From assembly GCA_004292595.1 (NCBI GenBank), contig RDXM01000119.1, positions 1,270-65,269 on the forward strand: a stretch of DNA of 64,000 nt. The letters are read 5' to 3'. The DNA comes from Candidatus Kapaibacterium sp. (GTDB taxonomy: Bacteria > Bacteroidota > Ignavibacteria > Kapaibacteriales > UBA4661). Numbering within the stretch: position 1 is the stretch's first letter; every line of letters begins with the position of its first letter. A program made the position numbers and the translations under genes. Positions 15,851 to 24,641 of this stretch are shown here, in pieces. The notes beneath the pieces were generated by a model that was not told where the DNA came from, ran no database searches, and saw nothing but the letters and a program-made list of their open reading frames with translations.

Positions 15851-15906
15851 ATCAAGTGTTTATCATCAAGTGTTTATCATCAAGTGTTTATCATCAAGTG
15901 TTTATG
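15851..15906 (+). repeat. 4 x 14-bp perfect tandem repeat (ATCAAGTGTTTATC) ending in the kinase start codon
   Basis: Read directly. The last unit reads ATCAAGTGTTTATG, and its ATG (15904) starts the MQFPLSQRFF... kinase. Confidence 0.9.
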
Positions 15907-17970
15907 CAATTTCCACTCTCACAACGCTTTTTCCTTTGGGCATTTGCTTTGTCGCTTATTGCGGTGACGACGGTGTCGCTGTGGTACGACCGCAAAGCCG
16001 AAGCAGCTATCGTGCAACGCACGTTTGACCAGCTTGCATCGGTGCGGGCATTGAAAAAAAGTAAGGTGAAGGATTACCTTCATTCCGTGCGCACCATGCT
16101 TTCTGTGGTAGCGGCACATCCAGCAACTATTCCGACAACAGCACGAGAAATGCAAACGAAATACGGCATTCAGGATGTGTATGTGGTCGCGCCGACGGGA
16201 GAAATCCTTTCTACTTTTCAGAATTCTTCCCCTCGCACCAATTCTTTGCCAGCACGTGTTTCTGCGACATTCCAAGCAATACAGAGGCAAGCTACGCTGG
16301 CGCAACAACAAAAAATATATTTCACGGATATTGTACAAGAACAAGGAACGCAGGATATATGCGCTTTTGGAATAGTGCGGATAGATTCGCTTGCTGCTGC
16401 AAGCGTCGCAGACGATGCAGGGCAAACCGTCGTGAAGGCTGATATTCCCTTGCGTGAGGGGAATTTTATCTTCGCCAAAATATCGGCACACACTATAAAC
16501 CAAATCATGTTGGAGAATGAGGGTTTTGGTGCAACGGGGGAAAGTTATTTGGTGGGTGAGGACAGCCTCATGCGCACAGAGTCGCGCTTTTTTGCCAAGA
16601 TATCAACGCTCCAGCGTCCTGTCCGCACCGAGCCGCTTCGCCGTGCTTTTGCTAATGAAACAGGATTTGCCGTTGCACTAGACTATCGTAATGTCGAGGT
16701 TTTAAGCGCATTCACAGTGATTTCTGTCGAGCAAGTGCGGTGGGCATTGCTTGTGGAGCTAGATGTTGCCGAGATTACCAGCCCAATCAATGAAACACGG
16801 CGCGAAATCGCATTTCTGGGCTTGAGCATAACGATTGTTCTTGCGGCTCTCAGTTGGTATGGTGCGCGGCGGTTCTCGCGCCCAATCGTGCAGTTGCAGG
16901 AGCAATTATCCGCTCTGGCGCAGGAAGGGCATTTACCCGAACAACCGCTTGTCATGCGGCGTTCCGATGAAATTGGCGCAATGGTTCAAGAATTGAATAG
17001 CATGATTTCTTCCCTGCGCCAAGCAAGCTACTTTGCGAAGGATATTGGTGCGGGCAGATTTGATACCGTCTTCACACCACGTAGCCCTCACGATGTCTTG
17101 GTCATTGCACTCAATGATATGAAAAGAGAATTTCAGAAACTTCTCGCTGAACGCCAAACACAAGCCTTACAGCGCACACGAGCTTTGGTCGAAGGCGAAG
17201 AACGAGAACGTTTGCGCATTTCGCGAGATGTTCACGATGGTGTGGGGCAGATTTTGAGTGCCTTGCGCTTCAATTTGAAGCGCATCCCCGACGAGCAACT
17301 ACGCAGCGAAGCGATTGATTTAGCTGATGATGCAATTTCGGAAGTACGCGCAATTTCCCACAATCTCATGCCTGCTGTCCTTGTGGATTTTGGTATTGTG
17401 GCAGCATTAGAACAGATGTGCAGAAAAATTTCCGAGCGAACCCACGTGCGCATTGAGCGAGATATTCTCACGCTTGCAGAGCTACCAGAACGCTTGGAAT
17501 CAGCAAAAGAAATCGCACTGTATCGTATTGCGCAGGAAGCTCTCAATAACGCTTTGCGCTATGCCGATGCCACAATGATACAGCTCGTTTTTCGTCTGAA
17601 ATCGGGGGAGTCGCATAATGAAGAACACTCTGAAGAACACTCTGAAAAACACTCCGAAGAACACTCTGAAGAACACTCTCCACAAAGCGTCGTCGTGCTG
17701 TGCATTCAGGACAATGGCAAGGGGTTTGATGTTGCACAAACCGTTGATGGAAATGGGATAGTGAATATGCGTGAACGTGCCGCACTCTTTAGTGCAACCT
17801 TGCGACTTCGCTCTGCAATCGGCACAGGAACACGTATTGAGTTGGAAATGCCGATTACATTGAGCAAGGATACAATTGCCGATTACATTGAGCAAGGATA
17901 CAATGCACGATGTTACATGAGAATTATTCTTCACAAAAAAGCCCGCAAGCCATATGAATACTATTGCTGA
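15904..17970 (+). CDS. sensor histidine kinase (extracytoplasmic sensor domain, HAMP, HisKA_3, HATPase_c)
   Basis: Two TM helices flank a periplasmic domain of about 280 aa. H-box RISRDVHDGVGQ, N-box EALNNALRYA, G-box DNGKGF. It overlaps the downstream response regulator by 17 nt. Confidence 0.85.
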   Translation: MQFPLSQRFFLWAFALSLIAVTTVSLWYDRKAEAAIVQRTFDQLASVRALKKSKVKDYLHSVRTMLSVVAAHPATIPTTAREMQTKYGIQDVYVVAPTGEILSTFQNSSPRTNSLPARVSATFQAIQRQATLAQQQKIYFTDIVQEQGTQDICAFGIVRIDSLAAASVADDAGQTVVKADIPLREGNFIFAKISAHTINQIMLENEGFGATGESYLVGEDSLMRTESRFFAKISTLQRPVRTEPLRRAFANETGFAVALDYRNVEVLSAFTVISVEQVRWALLVELDVAEITSPINETRREIAFLGLSITIVLAALSWYGARRFSRPIVQLQEQLSALAQEGHLPEQPLVMRRSDEIGAMVQELNSMISSLRQASYFAKDIGAGRFDTVFTPRSPHDVLVIALNDMKREFQKLLAERQTQALQRTRALVEGEERERLRISRDVHDGVGQILSALRFNLKRIPDEQLRSEAIDLADDAISEVRAISHNLMPAVLVDFGIVAALEQMCRKISERTHVRIERDILTLAELPERLESAKEIALYRIAQEALNNALRYADATMIQLVFRLKSGESHNEEHSEEHSEKHSEEHSEEHSPQSVVVLCIQDNGKGFDVAQTVDGNGIVNMRERAALFSATLRLRSAIGTGTRIELEMPITLSKDTIADYIEQGYNARCYMRIILHKKARKPYEYYC
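17620..17679 (+). repeat. 5 x 12-bp in-frame tandem repeat (GAAGAACACTCT) encoding (EEHS)n
   Basis: Read directly. It lies between the N-box and G1-box of the kinase ATPase domain. Confidence 0.9.
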
Positions 17971-19435: not shown

Positions 19436-19540
19436 TATACTAAAAGTGGATAAGAATTGCATGTTGAAAAATGAAGGAAATGAGATGTAGTCCACCTTTG
19501 AGGTGGACTACATCTGAAGCAACAAACCTTTTTTAGTATA
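19436..19540 (-). mobile_element. family B MITE-like element (B-1), 105 bp
   Basis: TATACTAAAAGTGG...GATGTAGTCCACCT-ttg-AGGTGGACTACATC...CCTTTTTTAGTATA. Imperfect 14-bp terminal inverted repeats. Confidence 0.85.
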
Positions 19541-19791: not shown

Positions 19792-20361
19792 TTATTTTTT
19801 TACAGCAACAATTCTATCAACACCATCCTCTGGGCAGCGTTTACGGAGCTTGTAGGATGCTGATTGCGTCGTTATCGGCACAGCGAGGAGTCGCTCTTTT
19901 GCAATCAAAATACCACACATTTTGCAAATCCCATACACCTTGTCATTGATGCGTTGTAAGGCTTCATCAAGTTTCTTGATGTAATCCGAAATGCGCTGCA
20001 CGTGTGCATAGAGCTTTTCTTTTTCTTGGGCATCAGTGCCTTGCTCTGCCATATGCATTGAGTACGAAGAGTTTTCGTCCGCCATCTCAGAATTGGTAAG
20101 GTCTTCAAGATTTTCACGCAACATTTGAAATTCTTCCATCGCCTTCTGACGTTCTGATTCAATATGCTTACGAAACATTGCTAAGTCAGCATCCGCATAG
20201 CGCACTGTTGGGCGTTGCAAGCGAGAAGCCATCGGCACGGGAGCGAATTGCTCTGGTGCTGCTACTTCCGTATCATCGTTTACTTCTTCGTTTTTTACGG
20301 GTTGGTCGAAGGTACGTGTTATCGAAACTGTTTGTCCTGGACGGAGCGTAGGCGCGGGCAT
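19792..20361 (-). CDS. TraR/DksA-family zinc-finger protein with N-terminal extension
   Basis: DksA-like coiled coil (FRKHIESERQKAMEE...LEDLTN...) and a C-terminal CKMCG...C zinc-finger region. It sits downstream of ileS, as is common in FCB genomes. Confidence 0.8.
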   Translation of the reverse strand: MPAPTLRPGQTVSITRTFDQPVKNEEVNDDTEVAAPEQFAPVPMASRLQRPTVRYADADLAMFRKHIESERQKAMEEFQMLRENLEDLTNSEMADENSSYSMHMAEQGTDAQEKEKLYAHVQRISDYIKKLDEALQRINDKVYGICKMCGILIAKERLLAVPITTQSASYKLRKRCPEDGVDRIVAVKK

Positions 20362-20567
20362 TATCCTCGGTGCCGACGATTTTGCTTGTTTTGCTCTCGC
20401 CGATGCCGATACTCTGCTCGCTTTTTTCTTTACTACTGTGACTTTTACGGGAGCATTGGAGGGTTCAACTTTCGCTGGGGCTTGTGGGATAGGAGCAGCT
20501 TTTGCAGGAGCAGCTTTTGCAGGAGCAATTTTTGAAGAGGGTGAAGTTTTTGATGGAGATTTTTCAA

Positions 20568-21020
20568 CTATACTTGCTTTACCTGCTTTTTTTTTTCAGC
20601 AGTCTGCGCCTTTGATACGGGTTTTGCCGTAACTTTCGGTGCAGACACTTTTTTTACTGTTTCCTTGACGGCGGGTTTTGCAGCCGCTTTCTTTGGTGCC
20701 GCTTTGGAGGCAGTCGCTTTTTTTGCTGTTTCCTTGACGGCGGGTTTTGCAGCCACTTTCTTTGGTGCCGCTTTGGAGGCAGTCGCTTTTTTTGCTGTTT
20801 CCTTCACGGCGGGTTTTACAGCCGCTTTCTTTGCTGTTTCCTTCACGGCGGGTTTTGCAGCCGCTTTCTTTGCTGTTTCCTTCACGGCGGGTTTTGCAGC
20901 CGCTTTCTTTGGTGCCGCTTTGGAGGCAGCCGCTTTCTTTACTGTTTCCTTGACGGCGGGTTTTGCAGCCGCTTTCTTTGGTGCCGCTTTGGAGGCAGCT
21001 GCTTGATTGGTTTTTGCCAT
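20568..21020 (-). CDS. histone H1-like lysine/alanine/proline-rich DNA-binding protein
   Basis: 150 aa made of repeated AAKPAVKETAKKA and ASKAAPKK units. No other domain. Confidence 0.7.
   Translation of the reverse strand: MAKTNQAAASKAAPKKAAAKPAVKETVKKAAASKAAPKKAAAKPAVKETAKKAAAKPAVKETAKKAAVKPAVKETAKKATASKAAPKKVAAKPAVKETAKKATASKAAPKKAAAKPAVKETVKKVSAPKVTAKPVSKAQTAEKKKQVKQV
20657..21000 (-). repeat. nested in-frame tandem repeats (69-nt units and 39-nt units) inside the H1-like gene
   Basis: Units at 20657-20725 and 20726-20794 (69 nt), then 20795-20833 and 20834-20872 (39 nt), then a longer unit again. Read directly. Confidence 0.85.
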
Positions 21021-21150
21021 AATATTTCTCCTGAAACTTCGATAGCGTCAGAAAATAGACTATCGAATGTGAATAACTCGTTATGCTGCGTTGTTTATAG
21101 ACTTGTCGTGATGAGACCCTCCATTGTGAGAGGACTACATGAAAAGGACA

Positions 21151-24100
21151 TTAGGTAGAGAACTTTTGAATATTCACGGAAATTATTTCTTCATTCAATT
21201 CAATGGTATTGGAAAATGGATGTGGACTAAAGCTGAGGCTCTGGCACAAGGTTTCATCCTGCACGTAGGACAGCATCGCCTCAAGTGCGCTTTGTACCGT
21301 GCTTGGCACGTGCGCCTCCAGCGTAATGCGGTCGGTTACTTCAAAGCCCGAATCTTTGCGAAGGTTCTGAATGCGGCTTACAAACTCACGTGCAATGCCT
21401 TCATTTACCAAATCCTGCGTCAGTTCCGTATCAAGCGCGACCGTTACGCCGCTTCCTGAAGCCACAAGCCAACCTTCAATGTCCTCGTTCACAATCTCCA
21501 CATCGTTGAGTTCAATCGTAAACGACGAACCGTTTGTGCCAACGGTGAGAGATTTATTCCGCTCGAGTTCCTTGATTTGTGCGGCATTCAGCATTTTTAT
21601 TGTGTTGGCTACCGTCTGCGTTTCTTTGCCGAATTTCTTACCAAGCGTCTTGAAATTTCCTTTTGCCGACTTCTGCACAATATCGTTATCGCCCGTCATA
21701 AATTCCACCGCTTTCACGTTAATTTCTTCCGTGATAATATCTTGCACGGCTTGGATTTGACGGCGTTCATCGGGCGACGAAACTGGCACCATAATACGTT
21801 TAAGTGGTTGCCGCGTCTTGAGTTTCGACTTCTCTCGGAGAGAACGCGCCAAAAATACGATATTTTGTGCTTTTTCCATGCGAAATTCTAATGCCGTATC
21901 AATTTGTTGTTCATTCGGCGTGGGCATCGGCGCAAGGTGAATAGAATCATGCGACGCTGTGGGGCGAAGGCGTTGATACAAAACCTCTGCCAAAAACGGC
22001 GCAAGCGGAGCCATCATGCTCGAAATCGTCATCAACACTTGGTGCAAGGTCTGATATGCGGCAATTTTATCGGCATCTTTTTCGCCTTTCCAGAAGCGGC
22101 GGCGGTTGCGGCGCACATACCAGTTCGAGACGTCGTTAATTTCAAATTCCTGCACAAGACGCATTGCCCGCGTGATTTCGTACTCATCCATCAAACGCAA
22201 GTATTCACGCAGGGTTGAGTGTGTTTTGGATAAAATCCACCTGTCAATTTCGGGACGCTCGGCAAAGGGGATTTCCGCTTCCACGCCCGTAAAACCGTCA
22301 ATGTTCGCATACAACGTGAAGAAGGCGTAGGTATTCGTGAGCGAACGGAAAAAGTCTGCAATGACCGTCTTTGCTATATCTTCGCCATTAAACAGCGTCG
22401 GTTTCCAAGGCGGATTGTTGGTGATAAAATACCAGCGAACCGCGTCCGCACCGTATCTTTCCATCACATCAAACGGATCCACGACGTTGCCTTTCGACTT
22501 CGACATTTTCTGACCTTCTTTGTCCAAAATCAGCTCGTTCACAATCACGTTGCGGAAGGACGGCGTACCAAAGACCGCCGTAGCGATGTTGTGCAGCGTG
22601 TAGAACCAGCCGCGCGTTTGGTCAACAGCTTCACAAATGAATTGTGCCGGAAATGCTTTGTCGAAAAGCTCTTTATTTTCAAATGGGTAATGAAGCTGCG
22701 CAAACGGCATCGCGCCTGAATCGTACCACACGTCAATTACTTCTTTCACGCGGCGGTAGGTTTTGCCATTCTTCTCAAACACAACATTATCCGCAAATGG
22801 GCGGTGCAAGTCCAGTTCTATGCCGCTTGCAAGTGCCTCCGCAACGGGAACGCGCTTGCCGCCTTGAGGATTGTTTTTTTCTTCTGGATGCTCATACAAA
22901 CCTTGTTTCAATTCTTCCACCGAACCGATTGCAAAAATATCGGTTTCATTTCCTTCGCCCTCTGCAACCCAGAGCGGAAGCGGTGTTCCCCAATATCGGT
23001 CGCGGGAAATTGCCCAATCTTTCACTTCCTCCAACCAGTTTCCGAAGCGTCCAGCGCCGATTTCGGGCGGTTGCCAGTTAATCGTATTGTTGTTGGAAAC
23101 AAGCTGCTCTTTGTACGACGACGATTTGATAAACCAAGATTCACGGGCATAGTAGATGACCGGATTGCCCGTGCGCCAGCAATGAGGATAGCTGTGGAGG
23201 TAGTCGTTTGTTGAACGGTAGATTTTATCAGCTTTCTTGAGTGCAATCACGATGTCTTTGTCCGCGCCTTCTTCGGTGCGAGTGCCATTCGTTGCGGGGT
23301 CGGGATAGGTGAAGGTTTTTACTGTGCGACCCGCGAATTCACGGGCTTTGTCCGTGAAACGTCCACCAGGAGAAACGGGATTGAAAAAAGGCAAATTGAA
23401 TTTTTTGCTCATCTCGAAGTCGTCCGCACCAAACGCGGGTGCGAGATGCACCACGCCTGAGCCGTCGCTTGCCGAAACAAATTCGCCAGCAAGTACGGTG
23501 TGAAGGTCGCTAAATTCCTCACGTGTGGCGGGAATCATGCCCGGAAACGGTGCTTCGTAGCGCGTTCCAAGGAAATCCGCGCCTTTGAATTTCGCCAAAA
23601 TTTCATAACTGCCGTCTAATTTTCCAAGTAATGCTTCGGCTAGAACCAGCTTGTCTTCTACGGTTGCCTTGCTTTCGCCTTGCTTTACCTCGCGGGTATT
23701 TTGCACGAGAACGTAGTCGAGTTCTGCGCTCACGGCAAGGGCGGTGTTGGAAAGAAGCGTCCAAGGAGTTGTCGTCCAGACGAGTATTTGTGCGCCTTCC
23801 AGAGCTTTGAGCGGCGAAGATTCGACGGGGAGTTTGATATAGCAATTCGGGTCGCGCACGTCCTTGTAGCCGAGCGAGAGTTCATGCGAGGAAAGCGGGG
23901 TTTCGAGCGTTGGTGATTGCGGCGTAATGCGGAAGGACTTGTAAATAAGCCCTTTGTCGAAGAATTGCTTGAGCGACCACCACACGGATTCGACGTAATC
24001 ATTCGTGCAGGTAATGTACGGATTGTCGAGGTCGAGCCAATAACCCATGCGGTTTGTAAGCTCGCGCCAGCCTTGATTTTGCTCAATGTTCGCATACACA

Positions 24101-24468
24101 AACTTGCGGCATTCGGCGTTAAATTTCGCCACGCCAAGTTTGTCAATTTCTTGCTTGTTTGCCAAGCCAAGCTGCTTTTCCACAGCAAGCTCGACGGGCA
24201 GCCCGTGCGTGTCCCAACCCGCCTGACGCGGCACACGGAAGCCGCGCTGCGTCTTGTAGCGGCAAATCATGTCCTTAATCGTGCGTCCCATGACGTGATG
24301 AATGCCTGGGCGACCATTCACGGTCGGTGGACCTTCATAAAACATGAAAACATCCGCACTCGAGCGTTCTTCAAGGGAGCGTTGGAACATTTTTTGCTCA
24401 TCCCAAAATTTTAGGATGTCGAGTTCGAGTTCTGCGTATGAAAAATTGTCGGGAAGTGGCGTAAACAT
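21151..24468 (-). CDS. ileS: isoleucine--tRNA ligase (long, type-2-like)
   Basis: HIGH-type GRPGIHHVMGR, KMSKS (QKMSKSKGN) and the editing domain. Start at ATG 24468 (MFTPLPDNF); the ORF is open to 24498. Confidence 0.95.
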   Translation of the reverse strand: MFTPLPDNFSYAELELDILKFWDEQKMFQRSLEERSSADVFMFYEGPPTVNGRPGIHHVMGRTIKDMICRYKTQRGFRVPRQAGWDTHGLPVELAVEKQLGLANKQEIDKLGVAKFNAECRKFVYANIEQNQGWRELTNRMGYWLDLDNPYITCTNDYVESVWWSLKQFFDKGLIYKSFRITPQSPTLETPLSSHELSLGYKDVRDPNCYIKLPVESSPLKALEGAQILVWTTTPWTLLSNTALAVSAELDYVLVQNTREVKQGESKATVEDKLVLAEALLGKLDGSYEILAKFKGADFLGTRYEAPFPGMIPATREEFSDLHTVLAGEFVSASDGSGVVHLAPAFGADDFEMSKKFNLPFFNPVSPGGRFTDKAREFAGRTVKTFTYPDPATNGTRTEEGADKDIVIALKKADKIYRSTNDYLHSYPHCWRTGNPVIYYARESWFIKSSSYKEQLVSNNNTINWQPPEIGAGRFGNWLEEVKDWAISRDRYWGTPLPLWVAEGEGNETDIFAIGSVEELKQGLYEHPEEKNNPQGGKRVPVAEALASGIELDLHRPFADNVVFEKNGKTYRRVKEVIDVWYDSGAMPFAQLHYPFENKELFDKAFPAQFICEAVDQTRGWFYTLHNIATAVFGTPSFRNVIVNELILDKEGQKMSKSKGNVVDPFDVMERYGADAVRWYFITNNPPWKPTLFNGEDIAKTVIADFFRSLTNTYAFFTLYANIDGFTGVEAEIPFAERPEIDRWILSKTHSTLREYLRLMDEYEITRAMRLVQEFEINDVSNWYVRRNRRRFWKGEKDADKIAAYQTLHQVLMTISSMMAPLAPFLAEVLYQRLRPTASHDSIHLAPMPTPNEQQIDTALEFRMEKAQNIVFLARSLREKSKLKTRQPLKRIMVPVSSPDERRQIQAVQDIITEEINVKAVEFMTGDNDIVQKSAKGNFKTLGKKFGKETQTVANTIKMLNAAQIKELERNKSLTVGTNGSSFTIELNDVEIVNEDIEGWLVASGSGVTVALDTELTQDLVNEGIAREFVSRIQNLRKDSGFEVTDRITLEAHVPSTVQSALEAMLSYVQDETLCQSLSFSPHPFSNTIELNEEIISVNIQKFST

Positions 24469-24641
24469 TGGGCGTAGTCTTTTCTGAATCTCTAACAAAC
24501 TAACGAGTTTTTATGTGATTTTTTGATAAAAAAATCAAGCTCGTAGTATAGCACTTTTTATGGAACGAACCAAATATTTTTTTAATTGTATGGAAAGATG
24601 AGGTTTGTGATTGTTGGAGGTTTGTTATCGTTGCATATTTC

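What the first reader, a model, noticed from the sequence alone, without database searches (positions are those of the whole stretch)
20359..20600. An A10 run phased as the dnaX-type slippery heptamer A_AAA_AAG links the H1-like ORF to the DksA/TraR ORF through a 78-codon stop-free, start-free spacer
Seen: the H1-like ORF (minus strand) ends GCT GAA AAA AAA AAG CAG GTA AAG CAA GTA TAG. The run is A10 (T10 at 20587-20596 on the plus strand). In the -1 frame the next codons (GCA GGT AAA GCA AGT ATA GTT GAA AAA TCT ...) stay open from the TGA at 20596-20598 to the DksA-family ATG at 20361. That is 78 codons with no ATG, GTG or TTG. The conceptual peptide is KKKAGKASIVEKSPSKTSPSSKIAPAKAAPAKAAPIPQAPAKVEPSNAPVKVTVVKKKASRVSASARAKQAKSSAPRI. 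It has the same K/A/P-rich character as the H1-like protein, so the 206-bp 'intergenic' gap looks coding. Established: A_AAA_AAG is the -1 ribosomal frameshift site of E. coli dnaX, and runs of 9 or more A are known RNA-polymerase slippage sites (Thermus dnaX). Inference, three readings. (i) One gene of about 410 aa encodes an H1-like::DksA fusion, broken by a 1-nt homopolymer undercall (A11 would fuse the frames). (ii) Two real products exist: a short H1-like protein, and a frameshift fusion tethering an RNAP secondary-channel factor to a DNA-binding tail. (iii) The spacer is a decayed remnant. A chance stop-free run of this length at about 50% GC is roughly (61/64)^78, about 0.02.
Basis: partly seen in the sequence, partly recalled or inferred. 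Interest (0 to 1): 0.72.

Follow-up and report, generated by a model that had tools for sequence, protein, structure and literature searches.

The report
Recoded histone-like/DksA fusion gene
A run of ten A's splits one gene for a DNA-binding tail fused to an RNA-polymerase-binding factor, and the same split is kept in dozens of related species, so the cell most likely slips by one base there on purpose to make both a short and a long protein.

Summary
The two minus-strand "genes", an H1-like ORF (20568-21020) and a DksA-like ORF (19792-20361), are one gene of 409 codons. It is interrupted by a -1 frame change at an A10 run (20587-20596).

Close relatives carry the same protein as one uninterrupted ORF of 300-430 aa.

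An independent MAG (L001), about 0.85 synonymous substitutions per site away, keeps the same A10, the same frame relation and an open 79-codon linker.

A separate, large Kapaibacteria clade has the same design: 56 loci, 32 of them species representatives. In 54 of those loci the run is A10 in one phase.

Across 34 distinct split loci, the 3661 codons between run and DksA domain hold no stop. The other two frames hold 164 and 162. Thirteen loci have no ATG there at all.

Sequencing error, decay and phase variation are therefore unlikely.

Best reading: programmed recoding gives a free H1-like protein and an H1-DksA fusion. Whether RNA polymerase slippage (A10 to A11) or -1 ribosomal frameshifting on A_AAA_AAG does it cannot be settled here; I lean towards polymerase slippage.

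I found no description of this case in the searchable literature.

The parts
19792..21020 (-). Whole recoded gene. It gives a 409-aa H1-like::linker::DksA-like protein if one A is added at the run or the ribosome shifts -1.
   Evidence: The conceptual fusion aligns end to end with uninterrupted ORFs of relatives L002 (403 aa), L004 (398), L083 (412) and L164 (424). Relatives P0004-P0015 are single ORFs of 310-332 aa.
20568..21020 (-). Zero-frame ORF: a 150-aa K/A/P-rich histone-H1-like protein, the short product. Its stop, TAG, is at 20568-20570.
   Evidence: No Pfam or NCBIfam hit because it is low-complexity. Tandem repeats of 39/69 nt span 20641-21004.
20587..20596 (-). A10 slippery run. 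The dnaX-type heptamer A_AAA_AAG, in phase with the zero frame, occupies 20586-20592.
   Evidence: The same A10 followed by G is found in L001 and in L163. A convergent A10 is found in 54 loci of another clade.
20596..20598 (-). TGA that closes the -1 frame just upstream. It overlaps the first A of the run.
20579..20581 (-). TAA in the third (+1) frame, two codons after the run. Only the -1 frame continues.
   Evidence: frame translations.
20362..20595 (-). Linker of 78 codons read in the -1 frame (KKKAGKAS...SSAPRI). It has no start codon of its own.
   Evidence: Compared with L001: dN/dS 0.57, indels of 9 and 3 nt, and other frames full of stops.
19792..20361 (-). ORF as a gene caller would call it (189 aa). 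The DksA-like domain proper is about 19795-20205.
   Evidence: NCBIfam yteA E=4e-21 and DksA E=4e-12, both below the curated cut-offs. Pfam zf-dskA_traR scores 22.9 bits. PDB 6ptg E=2e-9 and E. coli DksA 1tjl E=2e-5. Core dN/dS is 0.02.
20598..20649 (-). Stable stem-loop in the mRNA whose 3' arm ends 1 nt before the A run. It is a possible nascent-RNA stimulator of slippage. It is specific to this window.
   Evidence: -20.9 kcal/mol, z = -4.4, 0 of 200 shuffles fold as well. z = -3.4 against local windows. Not conserved in L001 (z -0.6 and -1.2).
21021..21089 (-). Conserved 5' leader: the box GCAGCATAACGAG, a hairpin (21038-21067) and the Shine-Dalgarno sequence AGGAG (21028-21032) before the ATG.
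   Evidence: Alignment with L001, L002, L004, L005-L009 and L083.
19483..19515 (-). Terminator-like 15-bp hairpin downstream of the DksA stop codon. No promoter-like or terminator-like site lies between the two ORFs on this strand.

Best explanation
The H1-like ORF, the 78-codon spacer and the DksA-like ORF are one gene, expressed through a programmed -1 frame transition at the A10 run.

Standard decoding stops at TAG 20568-20570 and gives a 150-aa lysine/alanine-rich, histone-H1-like protein. By analogy this is a non-specific DNA binder.

In a fraction of expression events the frame changes at the run. Either RNA polymerase stutters on the T10 template and makes an A11 mRNA, or the ribosome slips -1 on A_AAA_AAG. 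Both routes give the identical 409-aa protein (...AEKKK-AGKAS...). In that protein the H1-like tail is tethered through a disordered linker to a DksA-like domain that would bind the RNA polymerase secondary channel.

The cell thus makes two products with the same N-terminus in a ratio set by slippage efficiency. Relatives with an uninterrupted ORF make only the fusion.

Shown here:
- the anatomy of the site;
- conservation of the site and of the linker frame;
- homology of the fusion to uninterrupted orthologues;
- a second, larger clade with the same design.

Inferred:
- that the shift actually occurs, and at what rate;
- which machine slips. I estimate polymerase slippage 55%, ribosomal frameshifting 30%, both contributing 15%;
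- DNA binding by the tail and RNA polymerase binding by the DksA-like domain.
For: 1. Orthologues are single ORFs. P0004-P0015 and others begin MAKxTKAPAK... and run into the DksA domain. L002, L004, L083 and L164 are uninterrupted. At the position of the window's run, L004 reads GCA AAA AAG TCT AAC GGC AAG GCT TCC (PAKKSNGKAS) in one frame. This matches the window's ...EKKK|AGKAS....

2. L001 (GCA_013298775.1) has CCC GAA AAA AAA AAG TAG, with the -1 frame open for 79 codons to the same Met. It differs from the window by dS of about 0.85. dN/dS is 0.02 in the core, 0.125 in the N-extension and 0.57 in the linker. The linker gaps are 3 and 1 codons.

3. In a distance tree of the DksA cores, a monophyletic clade of about 45 distinct sequences is entirely split. 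The window and L001 form a separate small clade nested among unsplit relatives. The run has the same length in both but a different phase. Two origins are the most economical reading.

4. In 34 distinct split loci there are 0 stops in 3661 linker codons, against 164 and 162 in the other frames. Thirteen loci have no ATG between run and DksA domain, and gene callers pick scattered, non-conserved starts.

5. In the large clade the Ala codon that carries the first A is GCA in 38 of 38 loci (background 40%). The three Lys codons are AAA in 38 of 38, although 92% of Lys codons in the same ORFs are AAG. Selection therefore acts on the whole homopolymer.

6. A10 matches the 9-10-bp RNA-DNA hybrid and the 9-or-more A/T threshold for slippage. 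Chlorobi dnaX genes with A10 were inferred to use slippage (PMC5009743, PMC3711429).

7. The window has a strong stem-loop ending 1 nt before the run. This is the geometry reported to stimulate slippage (PMC5009743).

8. No promoter-like or terminator-like site separates the ORFs. The other homopolymers in the window do not break genes.
Against: - There is no transcript, ribosome-profiling or protein data, so the shift itself is not observed.
- Only two genomes (the window and L001) represent the window's own lineage. Much of the weight comes from a convergent clade.
- In the window's lineage AAA is the preferred Lys codon (26:14). The codon-usage argument for selection on the run is therefore weak there.
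- The window has an ATG at 20361 with GAGGA just upstream, which could start a stand-alone 189-aa protein. However, L001 lacks the GAGGA and L002 lacks the Met.
- The upstream stem-loop is not conserved in L001.
- Linker dN/dS of 0.57 shows only weak constraint.
- The large clade has a conserved stem-loop directly 3' of the run. That is a hallmark of ribosomal frameshifting rather than polymerase slippage, so the mechanism may differ from my preferred one.
Confidence: 0.82

Rival explanations
1. Sequencing or assembly artefact: the real genome has A11 and one ordinary 409-aa gene.
For: Homopolymers are error-prone, and one extra A would fuse the frames exactly. Unsplit orthologues exist.
Against: The same A10 is seen in an independent MAG at dS of about 0.85 and in a separate Logan assembly. 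54 loci of another clade, from many projects and assemblers, have A10 in one phase and are out of frame. No junction-spanning protein is found among the roughly 55 closest protein clusters of that clade. The other A8-A9 runs in the window that lie in long ORFs sit in intact ORFs.
Confidence: 0.03
2. Genuine, unprogrammed frameshift mutation. The H1-like part and the DksA part are now separate genes, DksA starts at ATG 20361, and the spacer is an untranslated relic.
For: The ATG at 20361 has GAGGA 4 nt upstream. Gene callers produce this model. Linker dN/dS is fairly high at 0.57.
Against: At dS of about 0.85 a relic would have acquired stops and non-triplet indels. Both lineages instead keep the frame open with gaps of 9 and 3 nt, while the other frames hold 4-9 stops. 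The GAGGA is absent in L001 and the Met is absent in L002. In the convergent clade 13 loci have no ATG at all before the DksA domain.
Confidence: 0.08
3. Phase variation: DNA polymerase slippage toggles the run between A10 (off) and A11 (on) within populations.
For: Poly-A tracts are classic contingency loci (PMC3711429). One pair of relatives differs in run length (L021 has A11+T, L099 has A10+T).
Against: Phase-variable tracts differ in length between strains and are found in both on and off states. Here 54 of 56 loci of the large clade carry A10 in one phase, and the window's lineage carries A10 in 2 of 2 genomes; all are out of frame. This holds across species-level divergence.
Confidence: 0.05

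Closest known systems
Thermus thermophilus dnaX, and Chlorobi dnaX genes with A10 (programmed transcriptional slippage)
   Same: A homopolymer run of 9-10 A in a cellular gene, with nearby stops in the alternative frames. Two products share an N-terminus. Some Chlorobi-type dnaX genes also need the shift for the long product (PMC5009743, PMC3711429).
   Different: The gene family is different: a DksA-like transcription factor, not a replicase subunit. Here the shift joins two functional modules (a DNA-binding tail and an RNA polymerase-binding domain). No experimental data exist.
E. coli dnaX and IS3/IS911 orfAB (-1 ribosomal frameshifting on A_AAA_AAG)
   Same: An in-phase A_AAA_AAG heptamer. 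As in IS911, the frameshift product is a fusion of two ORFs. The large sister clade also has a stem-loop 3' of the run.
   Different: The run is A10, not A6G, and its full length is conserved. The window lacks a clear 3' stimulator within 36 nt. No upstream Shine-Dalgarno-like stimulator was established.
Streptomyces DdbA (SCO2075): N-terminal histone-H1-like domain plus C-terminal DksA-like domain
   Same: The same two-module architecture. In DdbA the basic N-terminal domain binds and condenses DNA, and the DksA-like part is linked to ppGpp-related phenotypes (PMC3643593).
   Different: DdbA is a single ordinary ORF, reported only in streptomycetes. Here the architecture occurs in the Kapaibacteria/Ignavibacteria and, in two lineages, is split by a recoding site. 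Common descent was not tested.
Shigella MxiE (a transcription activator made through slippage at a T9 run)
   Same: Synthesis of a transcription regulator depends on polymerase slippage at a homopolymer (cited in PMC3711429).
   Different: An unrelated protein family. MxiE has no free-standing functional short product comparable to the H1-like protein.

Membership tests
-1 programmed ribosomal frameshift site (dnaX/IS911 type) | Slippery heptamer X_XXY_YYZ in phase with the zero frame | tested here: met
   The zero frame reads GAA AAA AAA AAG, so A_AAA_AAG lies at 20586-20592. L001 is the same.
-1 programmed ribosomal frameshift site (dnaX/IS911 type) | The -1 ORF is coding and conserved, and has no start codon of its own | tested here: met
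-1 programmed ribosomal frameshift site (dnaX/IS911 type) | Stimulatory RNA structure about 5-9 nt 3' of the heptamer | tested here: inconclusive
   For the window, the first 36 nt after the run give z = +1.07. A long-range stem starting at the first base after the run gives z = -2.0, and -1.7 in L001. The large sister clade has a 28-nt stem-loop: 90.6% of cells are paired against 49% or less when partners are slid, and 4 pairs show compensatory changes.
-1 programmed ribosomal frameshift site (dnaX/IS911 type) | Frameshift product demonstrated | not testable with these tools
   Needs mass spectrometry, western blot or Ribo-seq.
Programmed transcriptional slippage (Thermus dnaX type) | Homopolymer A/T run at least as long as the RNA-DNA hybrid (9 or more) | tested here: met
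   A10 at 20587-20596. The threshold is taken from PMC5009743.
Programmed transcriptional slippage (Thermus dnaX type) | The whole run is conserved, including synonymous positions that a heptamer would not need | tested here: inconclusive
   Met in the large clade: GCA in 38 of 38 and AAA x3 in 38 of 38, against 92% AAG usage. In the window's lineage it holds in 2 of 2 genomes, but AAA is the preferred codon there.
Programmed transcriptional slippage (Thermus dnaX type) | Nascent-RNA stem-loop directly 5' of the run (an optional stimulator) | tested here: inconclusive
   In the window: -20.9 kcal/mol, z = -4.4, ending 1 nt before the run. Not conserved in L001. The mean z in the large clade is about -1.0.
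Programmed transcriptional slippage (Thermus dnaX type) | mRNA population heterogeneous in run length | not testable with these tools
   Needs cDNA deep sequencing with a gDNA control.
DksA/TraR family (RNA polymerase secondary-channel factors) | Significant match to family profiles or solved members | tested here: inconclusive
   yteA E=4e-21 and DksA E=4e-12, but both are far below the curated cut-offs (75.7 against 134 bits; 46 against 105-115 bits). Pfam scores 22.9 against a cut-off of 24.9. PDB 6ptg E=2e-9 and 1tjl E=2e-5. A superfamily relative, not an equivalog.
DksA/TraR family (RNA polymerase secondary-channel factors) | C4 zinc finger (CxxC...CxxC) and the acidic DxxDxA coiled-coil tip | tested here: not met
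   Read directly from the sequence: only CKMC plus one later Cys (RKRC). In the alignment to E. coli DksA (1tjl), the tip stretch PDPVDRAA lies opposite YSMHM-AEQG, which carries one acidic residue (E) rather than the two aspartates. This is my reading of the alignment.
DdbA-type H1-like::DksA-like bifunctional protein | Basic K/A-rich N-terminal domain and DksA-like C-terminal domain in one polypeptide | tested here: met
   True of the uninterrupted orthologues. True of the window only after recoding.
DdbA-type H1-like::DksA-like bifunctional protein | Orthology to SCO2075; DNA binding by the N-terminal domain | not tested
   No DdbA sequence was compared. The paper reports orthologues only in streptomycetes. 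DNA binding needs experiment.
Phase-variable contingency locus | Tract length varies among strains, and both in-frame and out-of-frame states occur | tested here: not met
   54 of 56 loci in the large clade carry A10 in one phase, and the window's lineage carries A10 in 2 of 2 genomes; all are out of frame. The only length variants are L021 and L099.

The most novel reading that the evidence does not exclude
The recoding site is a sensor, not just a fixed-ratio device. If the shift is made by RNA polymerase at A10 followed by G, then the yield of the H1-DksA fusion would depend on polymerase behaviour at that site: pausing when the next nucleotide, GTP, is scarce relative to ATP, as happens during (p)ppGpp synthesis, or the occupancy of the secondary channel. 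A factor that binds the secondary channel would then feed back on, or be induced by, the very process that makes it. This would be an autoregulatory loop analogous to the RF2 (prfB) frameshift.

Partial support: G follows the run in 35 of 38 loci of the large clade, and GreA/GreB reduce slippage in E. coli. Against it: E. coli DksA itself did not affect slippage at an A9 run (PMC4666387).
Probability: 0.1. Interest if true: 0.85.

Novelty: new member of a known kind. Interest (0 to 1): 0.62.

Why it matters
**Annotation.** In 33 of the 80 species-representative genomes retrieved, and in many metagenome contigs, this locus is split. Where predicted proteins or gene calls could be inspected, the DksA part was called separately, with starts that are not conserved. 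The correct model is one recoded gene.

**Biology.** Conserved recoding in non-mobile bacterial chromosomal genes is rare; dnaX and prfB are the classic cases. Here it sits in a putative global transcription factor. It couples or uncouples a nucleoid-binding tail and an RNA polymerase-binding domain.

**Evolution.** The design appears to have arisen twice, with the same run length but a different phase. That is good evidence that making both products is advantageous.

**Mechanism.** The two clades form a natural comparison for separating polymerase slippage from ribosomal frameshifting: the same A10, with and without a 3' stem-loop.

Tried and rejected
- **Pfam and NCBIfam on the H1-like ORF:** no hit, because it is low-complexity.
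- **Rfam and tRNA scans of the whole window:** nothing.
- **RNAalifold on a MAFFT alignment of 35 downstream regions:** no consensus structure, because hairpin geometry differs between sub-lineages. Counting a named structure on a same-geometry subset worked better.
- **Search for junction-spanning (A11) proteins in the 5.8-billion-protein collection, using a fusion from the large clade:** none among the closest clusters. This gives no direct evidence of A11 transcripts or of in-frame variants.
- **P0002 and P0003 (200 and 249 aa):** they looked like further split cases but are uninterrupted ORFs truncated by gene callers.
- **The idea that DksA suppresses slippage, which would give simple negative feedback:** checked against the literature and weakened. 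E. coli DksA does not affect A9 slippage.
- **Literature searches for DksA with frameshift, slippage, recoding or Kapabacteria:** no description of this case. The 2016 recoding review does not mention DksA in the part held.

Full report
**1. Observation**

On the minus strand, ileS (21151-24498) is followed by a 150-aa K/A/P-rich ORF (20568-21020). That ORF ends GCT GAA AAA AAA AAG CAG GTA AAG CAA GTA TAG.

The run is A10, seen as T10 at 20587-20596 on the plus strand. It is the only A/T run of 10 or more in the window.

The -1 frame has TGA at 20596-20598. It is then open for 78 codons to the ATG at 20361 and on to the stop at 19792. Those 78 codons contain no ATG, GTG or TTG. The third frame stops two codons after the run.

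**2. What the parts are**

The downstream ORF matches DksA/YteA-type profiles: NCBIfam yteA E=4e-21 and DksA E=4e-12, Pfam zf-dskA_traR at 22.9 bits, and PDB 6ptg at 2e-9 and E. coli DksA 1tjl at 2e-5. All of these are below the curated equivalog cut-offs. It is therefore a DksA-superfamily relative, with an incomplete C4 finger and a non-canonical tip.

The conserved domain starts about 53 residues into the called 189-aa ORF. The upstream ORF is low-complexity tandem repeats and has no family hit.

**3. Relatives show that this is one gene**

A search with spacer plus DksA found close relatives, 89-90% identical in the domain, that are single ORFs of 310-332 aa. They start MAKxTKAPAK... and carry a long K/A/P/S/T tail directly fused to the DksA domain. 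More distant relatives reach 375-443 aa.

Loci L002 (85% identical), L004, L083 and L164 are uninterrupted, although gene callers truncated some of them.

The window's conceptual 409-aa fusion aligns end to end with these 398-424-aa proteins. At the site of the run, L004 reads GCA AAA AAG TCT AAC GGC AAG GCT TCC (PAKKSNGKAS) in a single frame. This is homologous to the window's zero frame before the run and to its -1 frame after it.

**4. The split is conserved in the window's own lineage**

L001 (= L003) is an independent Ignavibacteria MAG, GCA_013298775.1, with a DksA part 93% identical to the window's. It reads CCC GAA AAA AAA AAG TAG. It has the same A10 and the same phase, and the -1 frame is open for 79 codons to the same Met.

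The two genomes differ by dS of about 0.85:

| Region | dN/dS |
|---|---|
| DksA core | 0.02 |
| N-extension | 0.125 |
| Linker | 0.57 |

The linker gaps are 3 codons and 1 codon. The other two frames hold 4-9 stops. An untranslated relic would not stay open with triplet-only indels at that divergence.

A Logan assembly of SRR7244341 (L163) repeats the window's sequence with A10. The window's other A8-A9 runs that lie in long ORFs sit inside intact ORFs.

**5. A second, large clade has the same design**

I examined 160 related loci from species-representative genomes and from metagenomes. Of these, 56 belong to one monophyletic clade of about 45 distinct DksA sequences, and every member of that clade is split at an A run:

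- 54 loci have A10 in the phase GCA AAA AAA AAA, most often followed by GCC AAG TAA;
- one locus has A11 followed by T (L021);
- one locus has A10 followed by T and needs +1 (L099).

All but L099 need a -1 shift.

The window and L001 form a separate small clade nested among unsplit relatives. Their run is in a different phase and the flanking peptides are unrelated. Two origins are the most economical reading.

Over 34 distinct split loci, the 3661 codons between run and DksA domain hold 0 stops, against 164 and 162 in the other frames. Thirteen loci have no ATG there. Predicted proteins in public collections start at scattered, non-conserved codons, and none spans the junction.

This excludes sequencing error. 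It also argues against phase variation, which would show varying tract lengths and in-frame states.

**6. Mechanism**

Both known routes fit, and both give the same protein.

*For polymerase slippage:*
- A10 equals the 9-10-bp RNA-DNA hybrid and exceeds the 9-nt threshold (PMC5009743).
- Chlorobi dnaX genes with A10 were inferred to use slippage (PMC3711429).
- Run length is conserved while phase differs between the two clades.
- In the large clade the four-fold site of the preceding Ala codon is A in 38 of 38 loci. The three Lys codons are AAA in 38 of 38, against 92% AAG usage elsewhere in those ORFs. Selection therefore acts on all ten bases, more than a heptamer needs.
- The window has a strong stem-loop (z = -4.4) ending 1 nt before the run. 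This is the geometry described for slippage stimulation. It is not conserved in L001.

*For ribosomal frameshifting:*
- The window's run ends in an in-phase A_AAA_AAG.
- The large clade has a stem-loop starting at the first base after the run. It is 90.6% paired against 49% or less when partners are slid, and four pairs changed in a compensatory way in one sub-lineage.
- The window and L001 show only a weak long-range stem there (z = -2.0 and -1.7).

I lean towards slippage, possibly with a ribosomal contribution. This cannot be resolved without cDNA data.

**7. Function (inferred)**

Streptomyces DdbA has the same architecture. Its H1-like N-terminal domain binds and condenses DNA, while the DksA-like part relates to ppGpp phenotypes (PMC3643593).

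By analogy, the short product would be a free nucleoid-associated protein. The long product would be an RNA polymerase-binding factor tethered to DNA. The recoding site sets their ratio.

A feedback or nucleotide-sensing role is conceivable but speculative. E. coli DksA does not alter A9 slippage, whereas GreA/B do (PMC4666387).

**8. Novelty**

The kinds of mechanism are well known. I found no report of recoding in a DksA-family gene or in Kapaibacteria/Ignavibacteria.

It is a new, well-conserved and probably convergent member of the class of recoded cellular genes. It also corrects the gene model at this locus in many MAGs.

**Caveats**

- There is no expression data.
- The window's lineage has only two genomes.
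- The tree is a neighbour-joining tree on about 140 residues.
- The structure evidence is moderate.

Noticed in passing
window 21021-21089 (- strand): Conserved 5' leader before the H1-like ORF: the box GCAGCATAACGAG (21077-21089), a hairpin TTCGATAG/CTATCGAA (21060-21067 / 21038-21045) whose arms covary in L002, L004, L005 and L083, then AGGAG and the ATG. It could be a regulatory leader or part of the promoter region.
   Followed up: partly
L014-L159 (large split clade), first 28 nt after the A10 run, e.g. L024 2241-2268: A stem-loop starting at the first base after the run, e.g. GCCAAGUAAGGGUAACUCCUAACUCGGC. It contains the zero-frame stop codon. One sub-lineage (L056/L061/L080) shows compensatory changes in four pairs. 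The window and L001 lack it.
   Followed up: partly
window 20598-20649 (- strand): An unusually stable mRNA stem-loop (-20.9 kcal/mol, z = -4.4) whose 3' arm ends one base before the A run. It is not conserved in L001.
   Followed up: partly
L021 and L099: The only run-length variants found. L021 has A11 followed by T and needs -1. Its relative L099, on a 2.5-kb metagenome contig, has A10 followed by T and would need +1. This could be a real variant, an assembly error, or a hint of length polymorphism.
   Followed up: no
L004 about 2375-2385; L083 about 1469-1479: Uninterrupted orthologues carry an in-phase A_AAA_AAG (GCA AAA AAG and ACA AAA AAG) at the position homologous to the window's run. 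A lysine pair with a shift-prone heptamer therefore predates the split.
   Followed up: no
large split clade, upstream H1-like ORFs: Extreme Lys codon bias: AAG 92% (1052 against 95 AAA), except at the run. The window's lineage prefers AAA instead (26:14).
   Followed up: partly
window 15856-17970 (+ strand): The histidine-kinase-like ORF carries an odd acidic/histidine repeat insert (…NEEHSEEHSEKHSEEHSEEHS…) near its ATPase end.
   Followed up: no
window 19483-19515 (- strand): A perfect 15-bp stem, terminator-like, downstream of the DksA stop codon but followed by only a weak T tract. It is probably the end of the operon.
   Followed up: no
window 20599-21018 (- strand, -1 frame): The -1 frame is also stop-free across the whole H1-like ORF. 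The TGA overlapping the run is its only stop there, and the antisense strand holds 64-113-aa ORFs. Both are by-products of the GCN/AAR repeat composition, and they mislead gene callers: an antisense ORF was called in L002 and in L164.
   Followed up: no
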